Below, piece by piece: positions 45,383-63,677 of a stretch of 64,000 bases of DNA (positions are counted from its first letter, which is position 1; each line of letters starts with the position of its first letter). The stretch lies in sequence record OZ336094.1; one strand, written 5' to 3'. The notes beneath the pieces were generated by a model that was given only the letters and a program-made list of their open reading frames with translations, searched no databases and was not told the DNA's origin. The DNA comes from a phage. A program made the translations under genes and the position numbers.

Positions 45383-45401
45383 TCGTGTTTTTATAGGTGT
45401 G

Positions 45402-45515
45402 TTAATGAGAATCATTTTCGTTTGTAAATGAGAATCATTATCATTTAACTATGTAAGTGATAATCATTCTCAGTAAGAGAATGAGAATCATTAGCAAATG
45501 AGAATTTTCTCATTT
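45402..45515. promoter_or_regulatory. Array of five or more palindromic AATGA-GAA-TCATT boxes (Fur-box-like)
   Basis: AATGAGAATCATT x3, GTGATAATCATTCTC, and perfect palindrome ATGAGAATTTTCTCAT; one base from the Fur core AATGATAATCATT. Confidence 0.5.
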
Positions 45516-56316: not shown

Positions 56317-56346
56317 CCAGGGCGCACAAAGCGCCCTTTCTTTTTA
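56317..56346 (+). terminator. Intrinsic terminator (AGGGCGC-ACAAA-GCGCCCT + T-run)
   Basis: Same stem as 50955 and 55167 terminators. Confidence 0.6.
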
Positions 56347-56548
56347 CCTAAATAAAGATGATAGCTTTTACCTATCAAGAACGTTCACCGAAAAAAGTGA
56401 ATAGATCGCGGTATCGAGCTAATCAAGGAGCAGATGAACAACCATACCATGAAGATCATAAGGCGCTTACAGCGTGTTTTAGACCGCTTATTTTTAATTT
56501 CTTCATGCAACTATCTGGCAAAAACAGCCTTTTTCTCATCTTTCCTCT

Positions 56549-56626
56549 TAAATGATAATCATTCTTATTTATAGCTGATTATTTATGCAATAAACTGCAT
56601 AATGCAATAATGATAATCATTCTTAA
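56549..56626. promoter_or_regulatory. Two exact AATGATAATCATT palindromes (Fur-box core) in an ORF-free AT-rich region
   Basis: ttaaATGATAATCATTcttat and caataATGATAATCATTcttaa. Confidence 0.5.
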
Positions 56627-56986
56627 CTTAAGACCATCTAACTTATAAAATAATAAGTTATCTAACTAAATTAAAGCTAATTATCTTACTTTTATTTATA
56701 ACATACTGTTACTATCTTATTGATAACTTTATATTAAACAACAATAATCAATGTAAATCATTACTAAGCTAACTATAATCTATCTAACCCTTAAAACTAT
56801 AACTATAATCTATCGAATTGTTGCACAAAGTAACTATTAAATTGTTAGTAACATTGCTAAATAATTAATATCCTATCTATTTATGATCTAATCTTTACCT
56901 TCCTATTTATCACCTAACTAATCATTCCATATAGTAATCATTTCATACAATAACTATAACAAGAAATATAATTCGCAAGCGTATCA

Positions 56987-57182
56987 TTAGCAGCCTATGC
57001 CGGACACATAGGCGGCTAATAATAACGCAACTACACACCCCACATAATAACCATCACCGATAGTCATTATTTGTGCTTATGTAGCTTGCAACAACTGCAA
57101 GCGCAACAATATACAATTGTATATTGTATCCCTTACATTGTTGCGGTGCGTTATTATTAGCTAATGTTTAGAACATTGGCTA
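56987..57182. repeat. Cluster of three long palindromes in a roughly 1.4-kb non-coding region
   Basis: TTAGCAGCCTATG-N7-CATAGGCGGCTAA; perfect 20-bp palindrome CAATATACAATTGTATATTG; TAGCTAATGTT-TAG-AACATTGGCTA. Confidence 0.7.
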
Positions 57183-57465
57183 TAATATAAGCTAAATAAT
57201 AAGCTATACAATAATAAACATCGTGAATAATGATGCTGATGATCATAATGCGCCACCTTCCAGGGGGGCGCTATGTGAACACAAAGAAATCTTTCTTGTC
57301 AAGAAAAATATTAACACTATTGCGCAAAATTATTTATATATGAATAGATGGTTTTTCATACTATTGCCCCCATATAGCCTATCATTTGTTGAGCCTACTT
57401 TCTTAAAAGCGCAATAAATCAGAATTATCTTGATTTTTAGGGCGTTTTATAGTACAGAAAATATG

Positions 57466-57487
57466 CAAATGATAATCATTATCAGCT
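57466..57487. promoter_or_regulatory. Near-consensus Fur box (gcAAATGATAATCATTATCagc)
   Basis: 17 of 19 positions match GATAATGATAATCATTATC. Confidence 0.5.
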
Positions 57488-57639
57488 ATCTTCCACGGGT
57501 GGCACTATTTCACGCCAGATCATTTCATTTGGCAAGGTGTATATAGATGTTTAGACTTGCCAAGCCATTGATTTACTTAGAATTTATCTGTTTTGTTGTG
57601 AGTAGTACCTTTCTTGCTCAGAAAATAATCAAAAGTCTT

Positions 57640-57672
57640 ATAAGTCATTGAATGATAATGCAAATGATAATT
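57640..57672. promoter_or_regulatory. Tandem GATAAT-type hexamer array (gAATGATAATgcAAATGATAATTATTCTCATTg)
   Basis: Overlapping Fur-like hexamers. Confidence 0.45.
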
Positions 57673-58053
57673 ATTCTCATTGATATTTGAGGGGGACGGT
57701 CGGCAGAAATCGGGGGGCGCTGAAAATCGCGTTAAGCACCTCTCGCAAGCGAGCAGTATTTTGCGGCAAGTTATTGATATTATTGACTTTACGCTTATGA
57801 AAAGGGGGGTGTGTCGAAATAAATCGGGTATACCGGAAAATTTTTGTGGTATAGATATTTATTTGTCTATATTATGTACAAAGGGGTGTGTTAAAAATAA
57901 TAGGTATATATAGAATAATTGATAGGGAAATCCTATACTAATCCCTATACTAATTCCTCCATTAATGATGTTCCTATGTTACTGTTCTTGTAATAGATGA
58001 AAAGACGCTGTATGATGTGTGGCATGAAACGTAAACTTATAAAGGAGTCTGAT

Positions 58054-58431
58054 ATGTGTGTTCCTCTTAGCAGTCCACTGCTGTTAGAATTTTACAAAGC
58101 ATGGATGCAAGATCATTCCTCAATGCATCGTGAGAATGTTGGTTTGTGTATTTGCCTTATGGATTATCTGGCAACCACTATGTCAAAGAAAAAACCTACG
58201 CAAGAAGATATAGAACATTTCAAAATGGTTCGCAGTAAAACGCTGGAAGAGATGAAATTGCAATTCACGTGTGCTGGGCTATCCTCCTTCCTGCCCTTTA
58301 ATGATGATCTTCTGTGTTATGAAGATGAAGGTAAGAAACATTCTTGCCATACTAACCCAGAGAGATTGCAGTGGGTGAAAGATCGTATTGCCGATTCATG
58401 TTTGGTGTTAGGGGGTGGTAATGAAAAGTAA
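58054..58431 (+). CDS. Paralog-family protein 1 (start refined), 125 aa
   Basis: Shares LLEFYK.W, GLC.CL.DY, FTCAGL, LPFN, CHTN..RLQWVKDRI with three other genes; RBS aaaggag. Confidence 0.5.
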   Translation: MCVPLSSPLLLEFYKAWMQDHSSMHRENVGLCICLMDYLATTMSKKKPTQEDIEHFKMVRSKTLEEMKLQFTCAGLSSFLPFNDDLLCYEDEGKKHSCHTNPERLQWVKDRIADSCLVLGGGNEK

Positions 58432-58789
58432 TATTCCGTTGAGTAGTGCAGCTTTAATACGATTCTATAAAGCATGGATTGCCAACCATCCGGCAATGAA
58501 TCGCACAACGAGTGGCTTGTGTGGTTGTCTGGTAGATTATGTAGATGATTTTGTTGGTGAGGTAACTAGAGAAGAAGATAAAAGATGGCGTGATCGTTTG
58601 TTGGATAGTTTGAAATACGAAATGAGGAAACAATTTACATGTGCAGGACTGGACTACAATCTTCCGTTCAATGTAGATTGCATGGATTACCTTTCAGAGT
58701 GTATAGACTTGGCGTGTCATACCAACACGTTACGTCTTCAATGGGTGAAAGACAGAATCGAAGATGCAAATAATGCTTGCATTGAATAG
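58421..58789 (+). CDS. Paralog-family protein 2 (start refined), 122 aa
   Basis: Same motif set; RBS gggggtgg; overlaps upstream stop. Confidence 0.5.
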   Translation: MKSNIPLSSAALIRFYKAWIANHPAMNRTTSGLCGCLVDYVDDFVGEVTREEDKRWRDRLLDSLKYEMRKQFTCAGLDYNLPFNVDCMDYLSECIDLACHTNTLRLQWVKDRIEDANNACIE

Positions 58790-58860
58790 AAATGCCTGTA
58801 CACTGTGTTCCATAAGATATGCAATATCGCGCATAACAAAACTACTAATGAGAGGTGTAA

Positions 58861-59319
58861 ATGAAAACTGTATCTTTGTATCTTGCTAACACGGAGCGTG
58901 TACATAATCTTGTAAAAGAATGCGGTGTGAGTGTTCAATTTAACATAGGAACGCCTTCCGTGGTGACAGGCAGTGAGATGTGTGTTATTGATTTCATCAA
59001 TGAATATTTTCGTGGGAAGCCTATTGCTCGTCACTTCATTCGAGAAATGCGAGATGTACAACAGGATTATGAATTCTACCCAGAAATTTGTGAACGCTAT
59101 GAAACGATTCTTAGTTCTGTAGAAGATCCAGATACCAGTGAAACAGGTGTTTCCCACTTGCTGTGGATGTTGAATGAAATTCAGGATGGGTGTAATGGTA
59201 TGTCTGAAACCAAACGCCATCGTTGGTTAGGCTATATTCAGGGTGTTATGGTTATGAAAAACCTTATTACAGTGAATGATGAACGTAATGCTACACGCCC
59301 CGTCTTTAATGGAGCATAA
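58861..59319 (+). CDS. Hypothetical protein, 152 aa
   Basis: Track ORF; RBS gagaggtg. Confidence 0.5.
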   Translation: MKTVSLYLANTERVHNLVKECGVSVQFNIGTPSVVTGSEMCVIDFINEYFRGKPIARHFIREMRDVQQDYEFYPEICERYETILSSVEDPDTSETGVSHLLWMLNEIQDGCNGMSETKRHRWLGYIQGVMVMKNLITVNDERNATRPVFNGA

Positions 59320-59320
59320 C

Positions 59321-59536
59321 ATGAAAAGCATTCAGGTGTGTATTGAAAATAATTGTGGTTATCTGGGATTGACACATGTTGCTTTCCCTCTTATGTTAGA
59401 TGCCGATATCGCTTACAGCGGAGTTGCTTATGTGTCATTCAAGACAATGAGCCAAGTACCTGGCTGGAAGTGGGAAGTAGTTGATGTTGTTGAAGGAGAA
59501 GACTATGTTTTCCTTCCACACGAATATACTGTTTAA
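59321..59536 (+). CDS. Hypothetical small protein, 71 aa (start refined)
   Basis: ATG at 59321 directly after upstream stop. Confidence 0.45.
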   Translation: MKSIQVCIENNCGYLGLTHVAFPLMLDADIAYSGVAYVSFKTMSQVPGWKWEVVDVVEGEDYVFLPHEYTV

Positions 59537-59551
59537 AAAGAGGAAAAGAAG

Positions 59552-59728
59552 ATGGATAAAGAGACTACTGTGTACTTAGTAACAAAGAATACCCCAGGCT
59601 GGAGCCAATGCAGCACTGTACCTTACAAAATCTGTGCAACATTAGAACTAGCACAACGTGCAGAAGCAGAAGTGAATGCCATGCAATACAGCTATGGTGA
59701 AATCATTCCTTTTACTCTTGAACAATAA
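59552..59728 (+). CDS. Hypothetical small protein, 58 aa
   Basis: Hand-translated MDKETTVYLVTKNTPGWSQCSTVPYKICATLELAQRAEAE...; RBS agaggaaaag. Confidence 0.4.
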   Translation: MDKETTVYLVTKNTPGWSQCSTVPYKICATLELAQRAEAEVNAMQYSYGEIIPFTLEQ

Positions 59729-59739
59729 GGAGTTGTGTA

Positions 59740-60192
59740 ATGTTTGAAATTGGTAAAGTGTATCGTTTTAAAAACCCATCTTACATCCGTAAGTTTGCTA
59801 ACGTGTCTGAGTGCAATAGCAGGATTGCTTCTTTTTTAGGTGATTCCTATTTTCGTGTATTAGATGTGGATGATTGGTATGGTGTCACTGCTTTGCAATC
59901 CTTAGCAGGAGAACAAGAAATTATCGCTCAAAATGAAGGAGACTTTCTTCAGTGTTACACGTTGCTTGCAAAAAGTGAGTTTGAGTATTTTGTAGAAGTA
60001 TTGGAGGAAGCACCAAAAAGTAAACACGAAGAGAAATACCTGCTTGTAGTGGATGGAGTTCCGATCATGGAAACCACCTCCCGTGAGGAAGTTGAAAAAG
60101 AGGCGAAACGTTACAAGCTGGATCGTACACAGAGTGTAGTTGAAATCTATTCTCTTGTTGGTGTTGCAGATATTAGTGTGAACATCGTATAA
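59740..60192 (+). CDS. Hypothetical protein, 150 aa
   Basis: Track ORF; RBS aaggag. Confidence 0.5.
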   Translation: MFEIGKVYRFKNPSYIRKFANVSECNSRIASFLGDSYFRVLDVDDWYGVTALQSLAGEQEIIAQNEGDFLQCYTLLAKSEFEYFVEVLEEAPKSKHEEKYLLVVDGVPIMETTSREEVEKEAKRYKLDRTQSVVEIYSLVGVADISVNIV

Positions 60193-60195
60193 TAT

Positions 60196-60408
60196 ATGTG
60201 TAATGACAGATACATTCTTCGTGTATCTGATAAGTCTCCTATGTTTGACTGGCGGGGCTGGTGGCTACTAGCTCCGATGCAAGGTCTGACAGACGTGGAA
60301 AAGGAGGCTTATGTGTATACAAAAGAAGAGATAGAAGATAGCCTTTATTTGACAGATAACATTAAGAATGGTATCTTTGAGTGTAAATTGAAAGGAGAGG
60401 AAGAATGA
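60196..60408 (+). CDS. Hypothetical protein, 70 aa
   Basis: Track ORF. Confidence 0.45.
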   Translation: MCNDRYILRVSDKSPMFDWRGWWLLAPMQGLTDVEKEAYVYTKEEIEDSLYLTDNIKNGIFECKLKGEEE

Positions 60409-60704
60409 CTATTACAGAAAAACTGCGCTGTATTGCAAAGCAAAGTGGAGAAGGTTTATGGTTTCCTATTGAGGAAATTATTCAGGACTGTTATGATCAG
60501 GCTAAGACTGGCAAATACTCCAAAGCATTTAAACCGTCTGTTTTCGGTTTGGATGACTATCCAAAAAATGAACAAGCAAAGAAACGACAAGTTGATTTGA
60601 TTGATCTTGCTATGGAAGCACTACGAGAGCATGGGCTTAGTAAGGTGTATGCTTTAAACACCAAAGAGGGATTTGTAGATTCAGTGATCGTAGACTGGTA
60701 TTAA
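60405..60704 (+). CDS. Hypothetical protein, 99 aa
   Basis: Track ORF; ATGA overlap. Confidence 0.45.
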   Translation: MTITEKLRCIAKQSGEGLWFPIEEIIQDCYDQAKTGKYSKAFKPSVFGLDDYPKNEQAKKRQVDLIDLAMEALREHGLSKVYALNTKEGFVDSVIVDWY

Positions 60705-60713
60705 GGAGAAGTC

Positions 60714-61082
60714 ATGCAAGAGAATAGTAAAGTGTGTAGCATGAAAAGCAGCCCCTATTTGCTAGAATTTTATAAGTGGTGGTTAGAACAAGAAGATACA
60801 AACTTTAGCAAAAAGCATTATGGTCTTTGCACGTGTCTTGTAGACTTCTTATACAATATTGCTTGGATAAAAGATGTTGAGAGTGTATCAAAGCTCCAAT
60901 CCTCTGTACGAGAGGAAATGAAGGAACAGTTTAAGAAAGCGGGTTTGAACCATTTACATCCGTTTAATACGGATTTCTCGCACTACTTTACGGAAACAGA
61001 GCTAGGCATTGCACACCTTAATAAAGAACGTGTACAATGGGTGATTGATCGTATTCGTGATATGGAGGAATGCAATGATTAA
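60714..61082 (+). CDS. Paralog-family protein 3, 122 aa
   Basis: YLLEFYKWW, GLCTCLVDF, HPFN, HLNKERVQWVIDRI; RBS aaggagaag. Confidence 0.5.
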   Translation: MQENSKVCSMKSSPYLLEFYKWWLEQEDTNFSKKHYGLCTCLVDFLYNIAWIKDVESVSKLQSSVREEMKEQFKKAGLNHLHPFNTDFSHYFTETELGIAHLNKERVQWVIDRIRDMEECND

Positions 61083-61284
61083 GTTTAAAACTTTCTGTGC
61101 AATCACTGTTTGTCTTATTCTTGCATACGTGTTATTCTCTAGTATCATTCGTTTAGGTGAGTATATGGCAAGAGAAGCTCGTGAAAGTGAAGCTAAAAAA
61201 GAACAGTGTATTGTGTTAAAGCATCAAAGGGATGCTGAAAAATTTCTTGAACAGGATTGTGGGCGCTATGTGAATTATAATTAG
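61075..61284 (+). CDS. Hypothetical membrane-anchored protein, 69 aa (start refined)
   Basis: N-terminal TM helix (FKTFCAITVCLILAYVLFSSII). Confidence 0.45.
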   Translation: MIKFKTFCAITVCLILAYVLFSSIIRLGEYMAREARESEAKKEQCIVLKHQRDAEKFLEQDCGRYVNYN

Positions 61285-61293
61285 GAGGGAAGT

Positions 61294-61542
61294 ATGTTAG
61301 ATATTTTTACCTTTGATCGTGTTGGTACACCGATTACCGAAGAAGAACGTACCAAAATTGAACAAGAATTGGATGCTTTACGTGCGTCTCTTACAGACAC
61401 AGCCTCACTACAACGTGAAGCTGCACATCTCACAGAGATCACTGGTATTCAGTGGAGCACGGAGTGGGTTGTAATTACAATTGAAGCGGATATTTGGGGA
61501 CATGAAGAGACGCTACGTACCGGAGTAGTAACGGTTTGGTGA
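61294..61542 (+). CDS. Hypothetical protein, 82 aa
   Basis: Track ORF; RBS aggaggg. Confidence 0.5.
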   Translation: MLDIFTFDRVGTPITEEERTKIEQELDALRASLTDTASLQREAAHLTEITGIQWSTEWVVITIEADIWGHEETLRTGVVTVW

Positions 61543-61588
61543 TAGATGTTATTCTTTTGTGTTTCTTGATATATAAATAGGAGGGTTT

Positions 61589-61813
61589 ATGGTAAAACGT
61601 CTGGAATGGGATGCGTGTACTGCTCACGCTTGTCACTGTGATATTGTTGAAGATCCTAATGGAGAGATGGTGTATTATGAGGATTACGAAGCATTGCGCA
61701 ATGCTGTGATTGCTTTGCTGGATGATATTAGCTCACGCTATCCAGGACAACAATTCACGTGTCCACATATCCAACTATTAGCCGAACTTACGGAGTATCC
61801 AAGTGTTCCATAA
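61589..61813 (+). CDS. Hypothetical protein, 74 aa
   Basis: Track ORF; RBS aggaggg. Confidence 0.5.
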   Translation: MVKRLEWDACTAHACHCDIVEDPNGEMVYYEDYEALRNAVIALLDDISSRYPGQQFTCPHIQLLAELTEYPSVP

Positions 61814-61814
61814 T

Positions 61815-61982
61815 ATGGGTGTCCCTGAACAACTGCTCTTTATTGTAGGATTAGTAGGCTTATTGGCGGCTGGCGCTAAAGCCGCTTCTCACACGCATCA
61901 CATAATGTTAAGATTTCTGTTCCTACTCCCTTCTATCCTTGTATTATTAGTCATATTGATTGATAACATTTTTCACAATTAA
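61815..61982 (+). CDS. Hypothetical small membrane protein, 55 aa
   Basis: Hand-translated MGVPEQLLFIVGLVGLLAAGAKAASHTHHIMLRFLFLLPSILVLLVILID... Confidence 0.35.
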   Translation: MGVPEQLLFIVGLVGLLAAGAKAASHTHHIMLRFLFLLPSILVLLVILIDNIFHN

Positions 61983-61991
61983 GGAGAGGTT

Positions 61992-62576
61992 ATGAGTAAA
62001 ATTATACCAAGCAGTTATGAATTATTGCAGTTTTATGTATATTACTTAGACTGGGTTAATAGATCGAATGTTAAAGACAATGCGATGTTTAGTAAAAACA
62101 TCTGTTTAACAGAAAGTATCTTCCGTTATTGGCACACAGGCAGAAAGTGTACACACAGTGAAGCTATGCGCATTGTAGGTGAATACCTGGAGCAATTGCA
62201 AAAAGCAGAACTTCCTGTCCTTCACCCATTCAACGAATCTAAAGAAGAATTAGAACAAGAGTGTAGAGAAGGTAAGTGCCATTTAAATGAAAAACGTATC
62301 GAATGGGTGAGGCAACGTTTAGCCGATGCAGGAAAGACTCCTAGTGACTCTGACTATACGTGGTATGATGTAGAGGGTTTAGTTCAAGGTTTTGAGGCTT
62401 GTGCTATAGATAATACCAACTTTGCCAAAGTTTTATGCGAGGCGTATGACCTGGCAGATAAAATCCGAAATCACGGATGGAAACAAGAGCATAAAGAATC
62501 ATATGAACGCCTTGACAAGATTTTCAAACAGATCTATTCTAACCACAAAGAGATGTTCCAAATGGAGGATGTGTAA
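61992..62576 (+). CDS. Paralog-family protein 4 (divergent, with C-terminal extension), 194 aa
   Basis: ELLQFYVYYLDW, LHPFN, CHLNEKRIEWVRQRL; RBS aaggagagg. Confidence 0.5.
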   Translation: MSKIIPSSYELLQFYVYYLDWVNRSNVKDNAMFSKNICLTESIFRYWHTGRKCTHSEAMRIVGEYLEQLQKAELPVLHPFNESKEELEQECREGKCHLNEKRIEWVRQRLADAGKTPSDSDYTWYDVEGLVQGFEACAIDNTNFAKVLCEAYDLADKIRNHGWKQEHKESYERLDKIFKQIYSNHKEMFQMEDV

Positions 62577-63262
62577 TGAAAGAGATTATGTTTGAAGGGC
62601 ATCGTTACGAAGTTCCAGACAATGCAAATTTCATGGCTCGTGATATCACTGGAGATGTGTTCTGGTTTGAAGATGAACCTGTGTTTTCTTCGAACAAACA
62701 CTGGTTTTCACAACAATCTTCTTCGGAAAATATGACTTTTGGCTACGTAGAGCCTAAAGTGCGCTGCAAAGCAGCTTCTTCTTTGGTAAAAATTTCCCAA
62801 GATGATCAAGAAAATACTCCAGATGTTGTTAGTGCACTACTGAAGTACATTGCAGAACTTGAGAAGAAAATTAAAGAAGCAGAAACTAAGGTGAAAGCAC
62901 GATCAGCCATCATTGAAGCTATGTCTGAACGTATCTTAGAGCTAGAAGATTTGTGTGGAGAGGCTTATCAAGTGGTTGGTGCGCTGGCTTGTGAAGCACA
63001 AATGTTTGAAACTTCAGAACAAGTTTCACATATGTTAGATAATTTGAGTGAATGTAAAATGATTCATGATGATGTATTGCCATTTTGTTGCAATGTTAAC
63101 AAAACAGAGCAAACACAAGATTCAGAAACAGTTTATGTTCCGCTAATGTGTGTTCCAGATCATCTAAAAGGTGTATTCTCTTGTAAATGGTCGCTGTTGA
63201 GCGTTACTAATTGTGGTGAAAACTATTCTGCCAACATTGAATTGCTAAAACACGTTAAATAA
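62576..63262 (+). CDS. Hypothetical protein with central coiled coil, 228 aa
   Basis: Track ORF; heptad-rich segment (ALLKYIAELEKKIKEAETKVKARSAIIEAM). Confidence 0.5.
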   Translation: MKEIMFEGHRYEVPDNANFMARDITGDVFWFEDEPVFSSNKHWFSQQSSSENMTFGYVEPKVRCKAASSLVKISQDDQENTPDVVSALLKYIAELEKKIKEAETKVKARSAIIEAMSERILELEDLCGEAYQVVGALACEAQMFETSEQVSHMLDNLSECKMIHDDVLPFCCNVNKTEQTQDSETVYVPLMCVPDHLKGVFSCKWSLLSVTNCGENYSANIELLKHVK

Positions 63263-63272
63263 GGAGAGTAAT

Positions 63273-63677
63273 ATGTGGTCTGTTAAAATCAAATATAATG
63301 CGCAGTATTATGGTGGAAAGCCTTACGAAGTTGTTATTTGTGACTGTATCTCTAAAGAAGTTGCACAGCTTTGTGGCGCTGGTGTTAGTGAAGCTATGAA
63401 CAAAATGCATAACTCGACTGTGCGTTACCTGGATCAAGATATTCCAGAAGATGTAAATGACTATGCTTACGAAGTTATTTACAGTGAAGGTAAGAAGCTC
63501 TCTATTGAAGATGCACTTAAAGCACTACCTGCTATGTGCAGCCCAACGCCAGAAGCAGTTAAAGAGGTTTTACCAGAATCCAACCCCGATGAATATGCTT
63601 CTATGGTTGCTTCAGATATGTGGAATCTCTGTCGAGAAACTATGATTAAAAATCTTGTGGAAATGGCGCATGAGTAA
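63273..63677 (+). CDS. Hypothetical protein, 134 aa
   Basis: Track ORF; RBS aaggagag. Confidence 0.5.
   Translation: MWSVKIKYNAQYYGGKPYEVVICDCISKEVAQLCGAGVSEAMNKMHNSTVRYLDQDIPEDVNDYAYEVIYSEGKKLSIEDALKALPAMCSPTPEAVKEVLPESNPDEYASMVASDMWNLCRETMIKNLVEMAHE

What the first reader, a model, noticed from the sequence alone, without database searches (positions are those of the whole stretch)
58054..62576. Four-member paralogous small-protein family in the overlapping-gene block
Proteins at 58054-58431, 58421-58789, 60714-61082 and 61992-62576 share an N-terminal LLEFYK.W...GLC.CL.D motif and a C-terminal (F/L)PFN...CH(T/L)N..R(L/V)QWV.DRI motif with conserved Cys/His positions (possible metal site). 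Two members are adjacent and overlapping. Intragenomic expansion of a small ORFan family is typical of host-takeover or anti-defence proteins evolving under diversifying pressure.
Basis: seen in the sequence. Interest (0 to 1): 0.45.

Follow-up and report, generated by a model that had tools for sequence, protein, structure and literature searches.

The report
Multi-copy early phage protein family
Four genes at the leading end of this phi92-like E. coli phage encode old, diverged copies of one small helical domain; the domain is widespread in phages, has never been studied, and probably acts on the host early in infection.

Summary
The window is Escherichia phage Paula (phi92-like). The four ORFs are homologous (pairwise z = 11-45 against shuffles), and all match PHROG 2510, which has no known function.

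- It is not an ORFan family. There are 1,193 representative clusters, in at least six phage lineages.
- The Cys/His "metal site" is not conserved. Only C39 is near-invariant, and 10% of members have four or more candidate ligands.
- Orthologs evolve under purifying selection (dN/dS 0.10-0.29, like their neighbours), not diversifying selection.
- The paralogs are old (25-46% identity), not a recent burst.

What is there: a confident six-helix domain of about 110 aa (pLDDT 89). It has no Pfam model, no solved structural relative and no literature. By homology to phi92, A and B are the first two genes after the left terminal repeat, and they sit in a cassette that other relatives replace. Elsewhere the domain lies in the N4-like early region, in P22-like EaA proteins, in tandem arrays of up to eight copies, and in two- or three-domain fusions.

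Best guess, at low to moderate confidence: early accessory proteins that bind host or defence components. No target has been identified.

The parts
58054..58431 (+). Family member A (125 aa; PAULA_0068). By homology to phi92, the first gene after the left terminal repeat.
   Evidence: ORF. AAGGAG RBS before the ATG at 58054. phrog_2510 E = 7e-22. z = 45 against B. dN/dS 0.18. Present in 6 of 9 related genomes.
58421..58789 (+). Family member B (122 aa; PAULA_0067). It overlaps A by 11 nt, which suggests translational coupling.
   Evidence: phrog_2510 E = 8e-24. dN/dS 0.29. 95% aa identical to the third gene of the tandem array in Phapecoctavirus phiWec181.
60714..61082 (+). Family member C (122 aa; PAULA_0060; ortholog of phi92 gp006). 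The protein used for the structure model.
   Evidence: phrog_2510 E = 7e-26. AF2 pLDDT 89.3, pTM 0.83, six helices. Present in 9 of 9 genomes, dN/dS 0.13.
61992..62576 (+). Family member D (194 aa; PAULA_0055; ortholog of phi92 gp010). The family domain is residues 1 to about 118 (61992-62345). A 76-aa C-terminal extension follows (62346-62573).
   Evidence: phrog_27059 E = 7e-140 and phrog_2510 E = 9e-18. The extension matches the separate families phrog_25020 and phrog_24126. The extension has no Pfam hit. dN/dS 0.10, present in 9 of 9 genomes.
57392..57734 (.). Homologue of the phi92 left direct terminal repeat. It marks the inferred physical left end of the packaged genome, just upstream of A.
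   Evidence: phi92 positions 1-556 align to window 57392-57946 at 98.2%. The phi92 record annotates 1-343 as the left terminal repeat. The Paula terminus itself was not determined.
58043..59551 (+). Replaceable leading-end cassette: A, B, g58861 and g59321. phi92, PaulScherrer and PHB05 carry a single unrelated gene here (gp001).
   Evidence: Homology between PaulScherrer/phi92 and the window breaks at about 58042 and resumes at 59552. Annotations.

Best explanation
The four genes encode ancient paralogs of one phage-specific, soluble, mildly acidic six-helix domain of about 110 aa (PHROG 2510 and related families; no Pfam model).

Shown:
- The homology is real.
- The fold is predicted with confidence.
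- Each paralog is kept by purifying selection.
- A and B are the first genes after the inferred left genome end, in a cassette that related phages replace.
- The same domain recurs in blocks of small same-strand genes of unrelated phages: the N4-like early region, the P22-like EaA protein next to the integrase, T1-like phages, and genes 002-003 of the deposited record of a T7-like Rhizobium phage.
- It is often multi-copy: tandem arrays, fused two- and three-domain proteins, and fusions to other accessory modules.

Inferred:
- The proteins are made early in infection.
- They act without catalysis, as binding modules.
- A conserved helical core (L16, F19, Y20, W23, G37-L38-C39, L42, M69, F73, L78, P83-F84, W109-V110, plus helix N-caps S13, G37, N85 and N103) presents variable surfaces, above all the indel-rich connection between helices 3 and 4.
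- Each paralog engages a different host or defence component, or the paralogs assemble with each other. The fused forms and the coupled A/B pair hint at the second option.

The net role would be host takeover or counter-defence, dispensable in some hosts. The target is unknown.
For: - Homology.
- Family size and architectures.
- PHROG membership.
- Structure: AF2 pLDDT 89.3, pTM 0.83, six helices.
- Conservation is mainly hydrophobic positions and helix caps, and positions 47-64 are gap-rich.
- Charge: median pI 5.2, 18% of members above 7.
- Purifying selection.
- Presence or absence of A/B among near-identical genomes, and replacement by gp001.
- Leading-end position.
- N4-like context between the gp1/gp2 homologues and RNAPII.
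- Schitoviridae context beside RNAP1.
- Rhizobium Autographiviridae, genes 002-003 carrying three domains.
- EaA protein next to the integrase in SEN22.
- phiWec181 with at least 7 copies, including a triple tandem array.
Against: - No expression data, binding partner or phenotype exists for any member (literature searches).
- The promoter scan is not above background: 32 sites against 29.9 expected.
- The family spans phages of alpha-, beta- and gamma-proteobacteria and keeps several polar residues nearly invariant (C39, E68, Q72, N103, R106; Y91 and E94 at 85-88%). That pattern fits a conserved small-molecule pocket or active site better than fast-changing protein-protein interfaces.
- Purifying selection gives no arms-race signal.
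- Domain pairing is not established: the natural two-domain protein has pTM of only 0.64.
- No known defence or anti-defence model matches.
- I could not inspect model coordinates, so whether the conserved polar residues cluster in space is unknown.
Confidence: 0.4

Rival explanations
1. The domain is a small enzyme or a small-molecule binder (sponge). Its pocket would be built from the near-invariant C39, which lies in the first turn of helix 3, together with E68, Q72, Y91, E94 and R106. It would act on a metabolite or immune signalling molecule common to many Proteobacteria. The paralogs would differ in ligand.
For: C39 is Cys in 120/121 members even though family identity is about 30%. E68, Q72, N103 and R106 are conserved at 94% or more. 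The family spans phages of very different hosts, which suits a universal ligand better than a host-specific protein target. Orthologs are under purifying selection.
Against: No similarity to any enzyme or to any known sponge fold. N103, N85, S13 and G37 sit exactly at helix starts, so they may be structural caps. C39, L42 and the aromatic at 45 follow a spacing typical of core-facing residues, so the Cys may simply be buried. H101 and C100 are variable. Up to 8 copies per genome would be unusual for a sponge or an enzyme.
Confidence: 0.2
2. The proteins are zinc-binding (Cys/His) regulators. For example, they could be early transcription or DNA-binding factors controlling the phage programme.
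For: A and B have 4-5 Cys/His at the candidate positions 39, 41, 95, 100 and 101. C has 3. D has three (C95, C100, H101) in the wide alignment, where its N-terminal Cys is misaligned, plus the Cys that aligns with C39. A clade-specific site is therefore possible.
Confidence: 0.1
3. The domain serves a phage-internal housekeeping role, for example as a chaperone or adaptor for replication, recombination or genome-end processing, rather than acting on the host.
For: Orthologs are under purifying selection. C and D are present in all 9 related genomes examined. In T1-like and Skatevirus phages the gene lies near helicase and primase genes.
Against: A and B are dispensable in natural relatives and are replaced by an unrelated gene. 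Copy number ranges from 1 to 8. The domain is embedded in mosaic EaA-type proteins, which lie in the P22-like early-left operon, a region regarded as largely non-essential (own knowledge). No core phage function is known to need such a variable gene dosage.
Confidence: 0.1

Closest known systems
PHROG families 2510, 6418, 27059 and 2176 (uncharacterised phage protein clusters)
   Same: All four window proteins match phrog_2510 (E from 9e-18 to 7e-26). D is essentially identical to the phrog_27059 profile (E = 7e-140). Distant members match the same set of PHROGs.
   Different: These PHROGs carry no function, structure or literature. The split into several PHROGs hides the fact that they share one domain.
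EaA / Eaa / EaD proteins of the early-left operon of P22-like (Lederbergvirus) and lambdoid phages
   Same: The domain occurs as one module inside proteins annotated EaA. One example is the 311-aa EaA of Salmonella phage SEN22, next to the integrase. The phi92 record labels the genes downstream of D (gp011, gp012) as 'potential Eaa-like'.
   Different: The Paula proteins are single-domain (D adds one short extension) and lack the other EaA modules (phrog_60, 660, 3323, 5117). The function of EaA is itself unknown.
Leading-end early proteins of virulent phages, such as T7 gp0.3 (Ocr), the T5 pre-early genes and the N4 early genes (own knowledge)
   Same: They are small, non-essential, acidic proteins encoded at the genome end that is expressed first. 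A member lies in the N4-like early region between the gp1/gp2 homologues and RNAPII.
   Different: There is no sequence or fold similarity to any of them. The family pI of about 5.2 is far from the extreme acidity of DNA mimics. The family is multi-copy and spread across many phage lineages.
Crl, the sigma-S-binding protein (PF07417 / NF008217)
   Same: Protein C has a faint local match: E = 0.023, 15 bits.

Membership tests
PHROG 2510 (unknown function) | Significant match to the family profile HMM over the domain | tested here: met
   E = 7e-22 (A), 8e-24 (B), 7e-26 (C) and 9e-18 (D), covering profile positions from about 3 to 113.
Crl (PF07417) | Score at or above the Pfam gathering threshold (27 bits) | tested here: not met
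   15 bits, for protein C only. 1 of 121 family members matches at E<=0.05.
Crl (PF07417) | Fold similarity to solved Crl structures | tested here: not met
Structural Cys/His zinc site (zinc-finger-like small phage proteins) | Four conserved Cys/His ligands across the family | tested here: not met
   Only C39 is conserved (99%). C41 10%, C95 17%, C100 57%, H101 69%. Four or more ligands in 12/121 members. No co-variation between C100 and H101.
Structural Cys/His zinc site (zinc-finger-like small phage proteins) | Bound metal | not testable with these tools
   This needs metal analysis of purified protein. A and B have 4-5 candidate ligands, so a clade-specific site remains possible.
EaA/Eaa proteins of P22-like phages | Shares the module composition of annotated EaA proteins | tested here: inconclusive
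   The domain is one module of the SEN22 EaA protein and of mosaic prophage proteins. The window proteins lack the other modules. 'EaA' is a positional name without a defining profile.
Ocr-type DNA mimics | Extreme negative charge (pI about 4) and a DNA-like surface | tested here: not met
   pI 5.2-6.9 for the four domains; family median 5.2. Ocr is absent from the listed structural matches.
Known defence or anti-defence components (PADLOC-DB models) | Match to any model in the library | tested here: not met
   No hit at E<=0.1 for the four proteins or for three multi-domain relatives. PADLOC holds mainly defence models rather than anti-defence models, so this is a weak test.
Early (immediately expressed) phage genes | Transcription in the first minutes of infection | not testable with these tools
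   Only positional evidence is available: first genes after the phi92-type terminal repeat and the N4-like early region. The promoter scan is not above background.

The most novel reading that the evidence does not exclude
The domain is an uncharacterised, widely distributed counter-defence or host-takeover module. Its near-invariant Cys39/Glu68/Gln72/Arg106 set would form a functional pocket. Phages would deploy it in arrays at the genome end that enters and is expressed first, with each paralog or fused copy neutralising a different host immune component or signal. That would define a new protein family, and probably a new fold, for phage immune evasion.
Probability: 0.25. Interest if true: 0.7.

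Novelty: new member of a known kind. Interest (0 to 1): 0.4.

Why it matters
The family is large: 1,193 clusters at 50% identity. It is confined to phages and prophages in every context I examined. It has a confident predicted fold with no solved relative, no Pfam model and no literature. It also repeatedly occupies the part of phage genomes where anti-restriction and host-takeover genes are usually found.

That makes it a concrete and tractable target for functional work. Members are present in the BASEL phages Bas60 and Bas61, which infect E. coli K-12. Natural variants with and without the A/B cassette exist. Single residues such as C39 and R106 offer clean mutational tests.

Taken alone, four hypothetical paralogs in a phi92-like phage are not surprising to a specialist.

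Tried and rejected

2. Conserved metal site. Rejected at family level.

3. Diversifying selection. Rejected for orthologs.

4. Ongoing gene conversion between A and B. Rejected. The DNA is saturated, and apart from the 11-nt physical overlap of the two genes I saw no long identical tract. However, A-N-terminus/B-C-terminus chimeras exist in databases (P0002 and P0023).

7. Word-indexed homolog search with the wide alignment. It added only 10 unnamed proteins.

8. The search for related loci. It failed three times: the alignment was too diverse, and then two scans of bacterial genomes returned no confirmed relative. The prophage distribution in bacterial genomes was therefore not measured.

9. 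Literature. Nothing on these PHROGs, on phi92 gp006 or gp010, or on EaA function. The HIDEN-SEQ preprint (10.1101/2025.11.20.689424) and the accessory-gene preprint (10.1101/2023.04.06.535777) do not mention phi92-like phages.

10. Promoter scan around the block. Not above shuffled expectation.

11. Names given to neighbouring genes in other records ('goF', 'M20 metallo-hydrolase', 'transcription factor'). They belong to other genes, and Pfam does not support them.
Full report
**Identity of the window.** The region 57000-63000 is 99.9% identical to Escherichia phage Paula (LR865361.1; Justusliebigvirus, Stephanstirmvirinae, phi92-like). It is 88-98% identical to more than 100 related phages. 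The four ORFs are PAULA_0068, 0067, 0060 and 0055, all annotated 'hypothetical'. C and D correspond to phi92 gp006 and gp010.

**Check of the observation.**
- The ORFs are present as described.
- An HMM of the four proteins finds no further copy among the six-frame ORFs of the 64-kb window.
- A (ATG at 58054, preceded by AAGGAG) and B (ATG at 58421, preceded by GGGGGTGG) overlap by 11 nt.
- The quoted motifs hold for A, B and C. D is more divergent and has a 76-residue C-terminal extension. C lacks the Cys of the 'CH' motif.

**Size and spread of the family.**
- A word-indexed search found only 31 clusters.
- An exhaustive profile search of 1.84 billion representatives found 1,193 at E<=1e-3 and 408 at E<=1e-10. 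One listed hit (P0157) is a low-complexity false positive.
- Most members are single domains of 95-130 aa. Others are two- or three-domain tandem fusions (P0021, P0032, P0036, P0050).
- Some are fusions to other accessory modules: DUF551 in P0083, and modules shared with EaA/Eaa/EaD proteins of P22-like phages in P0114, P0132, P0153, P0155 and P0172.
- All four window proteins match PHROG 2510. D is phrog_27059. Relatives also match phrog_6418 and phrog_2176. None has a known function.
- There is no Pfam, NCBIfam or PADLOC match. No Pfam family is hit by more than one of 121 members.
- tblastn with C finds 469 places in 177 deposited phage genomes, with 1-8 copies per genome.
- The family is therefore not an ORFan.

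**Structure.**
- AlphaFold2 on a 20-sequence alignment gives a confident six-helix domain for C: pLDDT 89.3, pTM 0.83, helices 14-25, 31-35, 38-53, 58-75, 88-97 and 104-120.
- The family profile finds no PDB sequence at E<=10.
- Foldseek against BFVD returns only uncharacterised proteins of phages infecting Escherichia, Pectobacterium, Rhizobium, Achromobacter, Burkholderia, Delftia, Klebsiella and Shigella.

**Conservation and the metal-site idea.**
- Positions conserved at 90% or more in 121 diverse members: L16, F19, Y20, G37, L38, C39, E68, Q72, F73, L78, P83, F84, N103, R106, W109 and V110. W23 is at 89%.
- S13, G37, N85 and N103 sit immediately before helices 1, 3, 5 and 6. I infer that they are helix caps.
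- The stretch 47-64, which connects helices 3 and 4, is the main site of insertions and deletions.
Position 41 is Asn in 72% and Cys in 10%. C100 is at 57% and H101 at 69%, and the two do not co-vary (p = 0.43). Only 12 of 121 members have four or more Cys/His among positions 39, 41, 95, 100 and 101.
- A family-wide metal site is not supported. A and B, with 4-5 candidate ligands, could still have a clade-specific one.
- The family is mildly acidic: median pI 5.2, with 18% of members above 7.

**Evolution.**
- Across nine Justusliebigvirus genomes, pooled NG86 dN/dS is 0.18 (A), 0.29 (B), 0.13 (C) and 0.10 (D). Twelve neighbouring genes range from 0.04 to 0.41. This is purifying selection with no sign of diversification.
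- C and D are present in 9 of 9 genomes, A and B in 6 of 9.
- The paralogs are 27-46% identical in protein and saturated at the DNA level. That is as far apart as copies from different phage families.
- A and B cluster with the first two genes of a triple tandem array in Phapecoctavirus phiWec181. B is 95% identical to the third gene of that array, although the two phages belong to different genera.
- phiWec181 has at least seven copies within 12 kb.
- Database proteins P0002 and P0023 join an A-type N-terminus to a B-type C-terminus. Rearrangements between neighbouring copies therefore do occur.

**Genomic position.**
- phi92 positions 1-556 align to window 57392-57946 at 98%. The phi92 record annotates 1-343 as the left direct terminal repeat.
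- By homology, the packaged genome begins near window 57392, and A and B are its first two genes.
- The segment 58043-59551 (A, B and two further small genes) is replaced by a single unrelated gene, gp001, in phi92, PaulScherrer and PHB05.
- Eryne, ESCO8, AMO3598 and Nernie carry an extra 156-nt ORF between A and B.
- In other lineages the domain lies:
  - between the N4 gp1/gp2 homologues and the RNAPII gene of an N4-like contig;
  - beside RNAP1 in Erwinia phage Fifi287;
  - in genes 002 and 003 (three domains) of the deposited record of a T7-like Rhizobium phage, whose physical end I did not verify;
  - in blocks of small genes of T1-like and Skatevirus phages;
  - inside the EaA protein next to the integrase of P22-like SEN22.
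- All of these are regions of small, same-strand, unannotated genes. From general knowledge of T7, N4 and P22 they correspond to early or non-essential accessory regions. No expression data were found, and a promoter scan of the block is at background.

**Interpretation.**
- The descriptive conclusion is secure: this is a real, ancient, multi-copy, phage-specific helical domain family at the leading end of the genome.
- The mechanism is inferred. My preferred reading (about 0.4) is that these are early accessory proteins acting as binding modules. A conserved helical core would carry variable surfaces, with different paralogs addressing different host or defence components, possibly as hetero-oligomers. 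The coupled A/B pair and the natural fusions hint at the last point, but it is not established: the two-domain model has pTM 0.64.
- The main rival (about 0.2) is a pocket for a small molecule, or a thiol-dependent activity, centred on C39, E68, Q72 and R106. This would better explain the deep conservation of polar residues across phages of distant hosts.
- A zinc-dependent regulator (about 0.1) and a phage-internal housekeeping role (about 0.1) are less likely.
- The remaining probability covers functions I have not thought of.

**Novelty.** The sequences are deposited and clustered in PHROGs, so these proteins are new members of a catalogued but uncharacterised family. The recognition that several PHROGs and the EaA module share one domain, its leading-end position and its copy-number behaviour appear not to have been described in the literature I could search.

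Noticed in passing
window 45401-45495 and 56551-57675: Two intergenic regions hold arrays of a motif, AATGA(T/G)AATCATT, that closely resembles the E. coli Fur-box consensus GATAATGATAATCATTATC (consensus from my own knowledge). The 13-mer gives 12 matches at up to 1 mismatch against 0.28 expected. The 19-mer gives 6 matches at up to 3 mismatches against 0.01 expected; the best, at 57465-57483, has 2 mismatches and lies inside the inferred terminal repeat upstream of gene A. This could mean iron- or Fur-responsive control of phage early regions, or binding sites for a phage regulator.
   Followed up: partly
window 57392-57734: Homologue of the phi92 left direct terminal repeat (98% identity over phi92 1-556). 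The physical genome end probably lies inside the AT-rich, gene-free gap of about 1.7 kb at 56340-58050.
   Followed up: partly
window 58043-59551: A leading-end cassette of four genes (A, B, g58861, g59321). phi92, PaulScherrer and PHB05 carry a single 462-nt gene here instead (gp001, annotated 'putative DNA-binding' or 'transcription-repair coupling factor fold').
   Followed up: yes
L007 1923-2078; L010 2064-2219; L011 2207-2362; L012 2063-2218: Eryne, ESCO8, AMO3598 and Nernie have an extra 156-nt ORF inserted exactly between A and B. In Paula the two genes overlap at that point.
   Followed up: no
window 62346-62573: The 76-aa C-terminal extension of D matches separate small-protein families (phrog_25020 and phrog_24126), so D is a fusion of two accessory modules. 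The extension has no Pfam hit.
   Followed up: partly
window 61294-61542: This 82-aa ORF is annotated 'M20/M25/M40 family metallo-hydrolase' in the Paula record. It has no such Pfam match and is far too short, so the name is probably an annotation carry-over. The gene is present in only 4 of 9 related genomes.
   Followed up: partly
window 59740-60192 and 60405-60704: Other records name these neighbouring genes 'goF mRNA metabolism modulator' (Eryne) and 'putative transcription factor' (BASEL phages). Pfam supports neither name. The whole block from 58054 to 63677 has no Pfam-assignable gene among those I tested.
   Followed up: partly
hits H8-H11 (MG065645, MG065689, MG065639, MG065656): Records named 'Campylobacter phage', with host Campylobacter jejuni, are 96.6% identical to this E. 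coli phage region. Such identity between phages of such different hosts suggests mislabelling or contamination of those records.
   Followed up: no
L014 12738-13106 versus window 58421-58789: Paralog B is 95% identical in protein to a gene of Phapecoctavirus phiWec181, while the other paralogs differ by 55-75%. This suggests recent exchange of this one gene between genera.
   Followed up: partly
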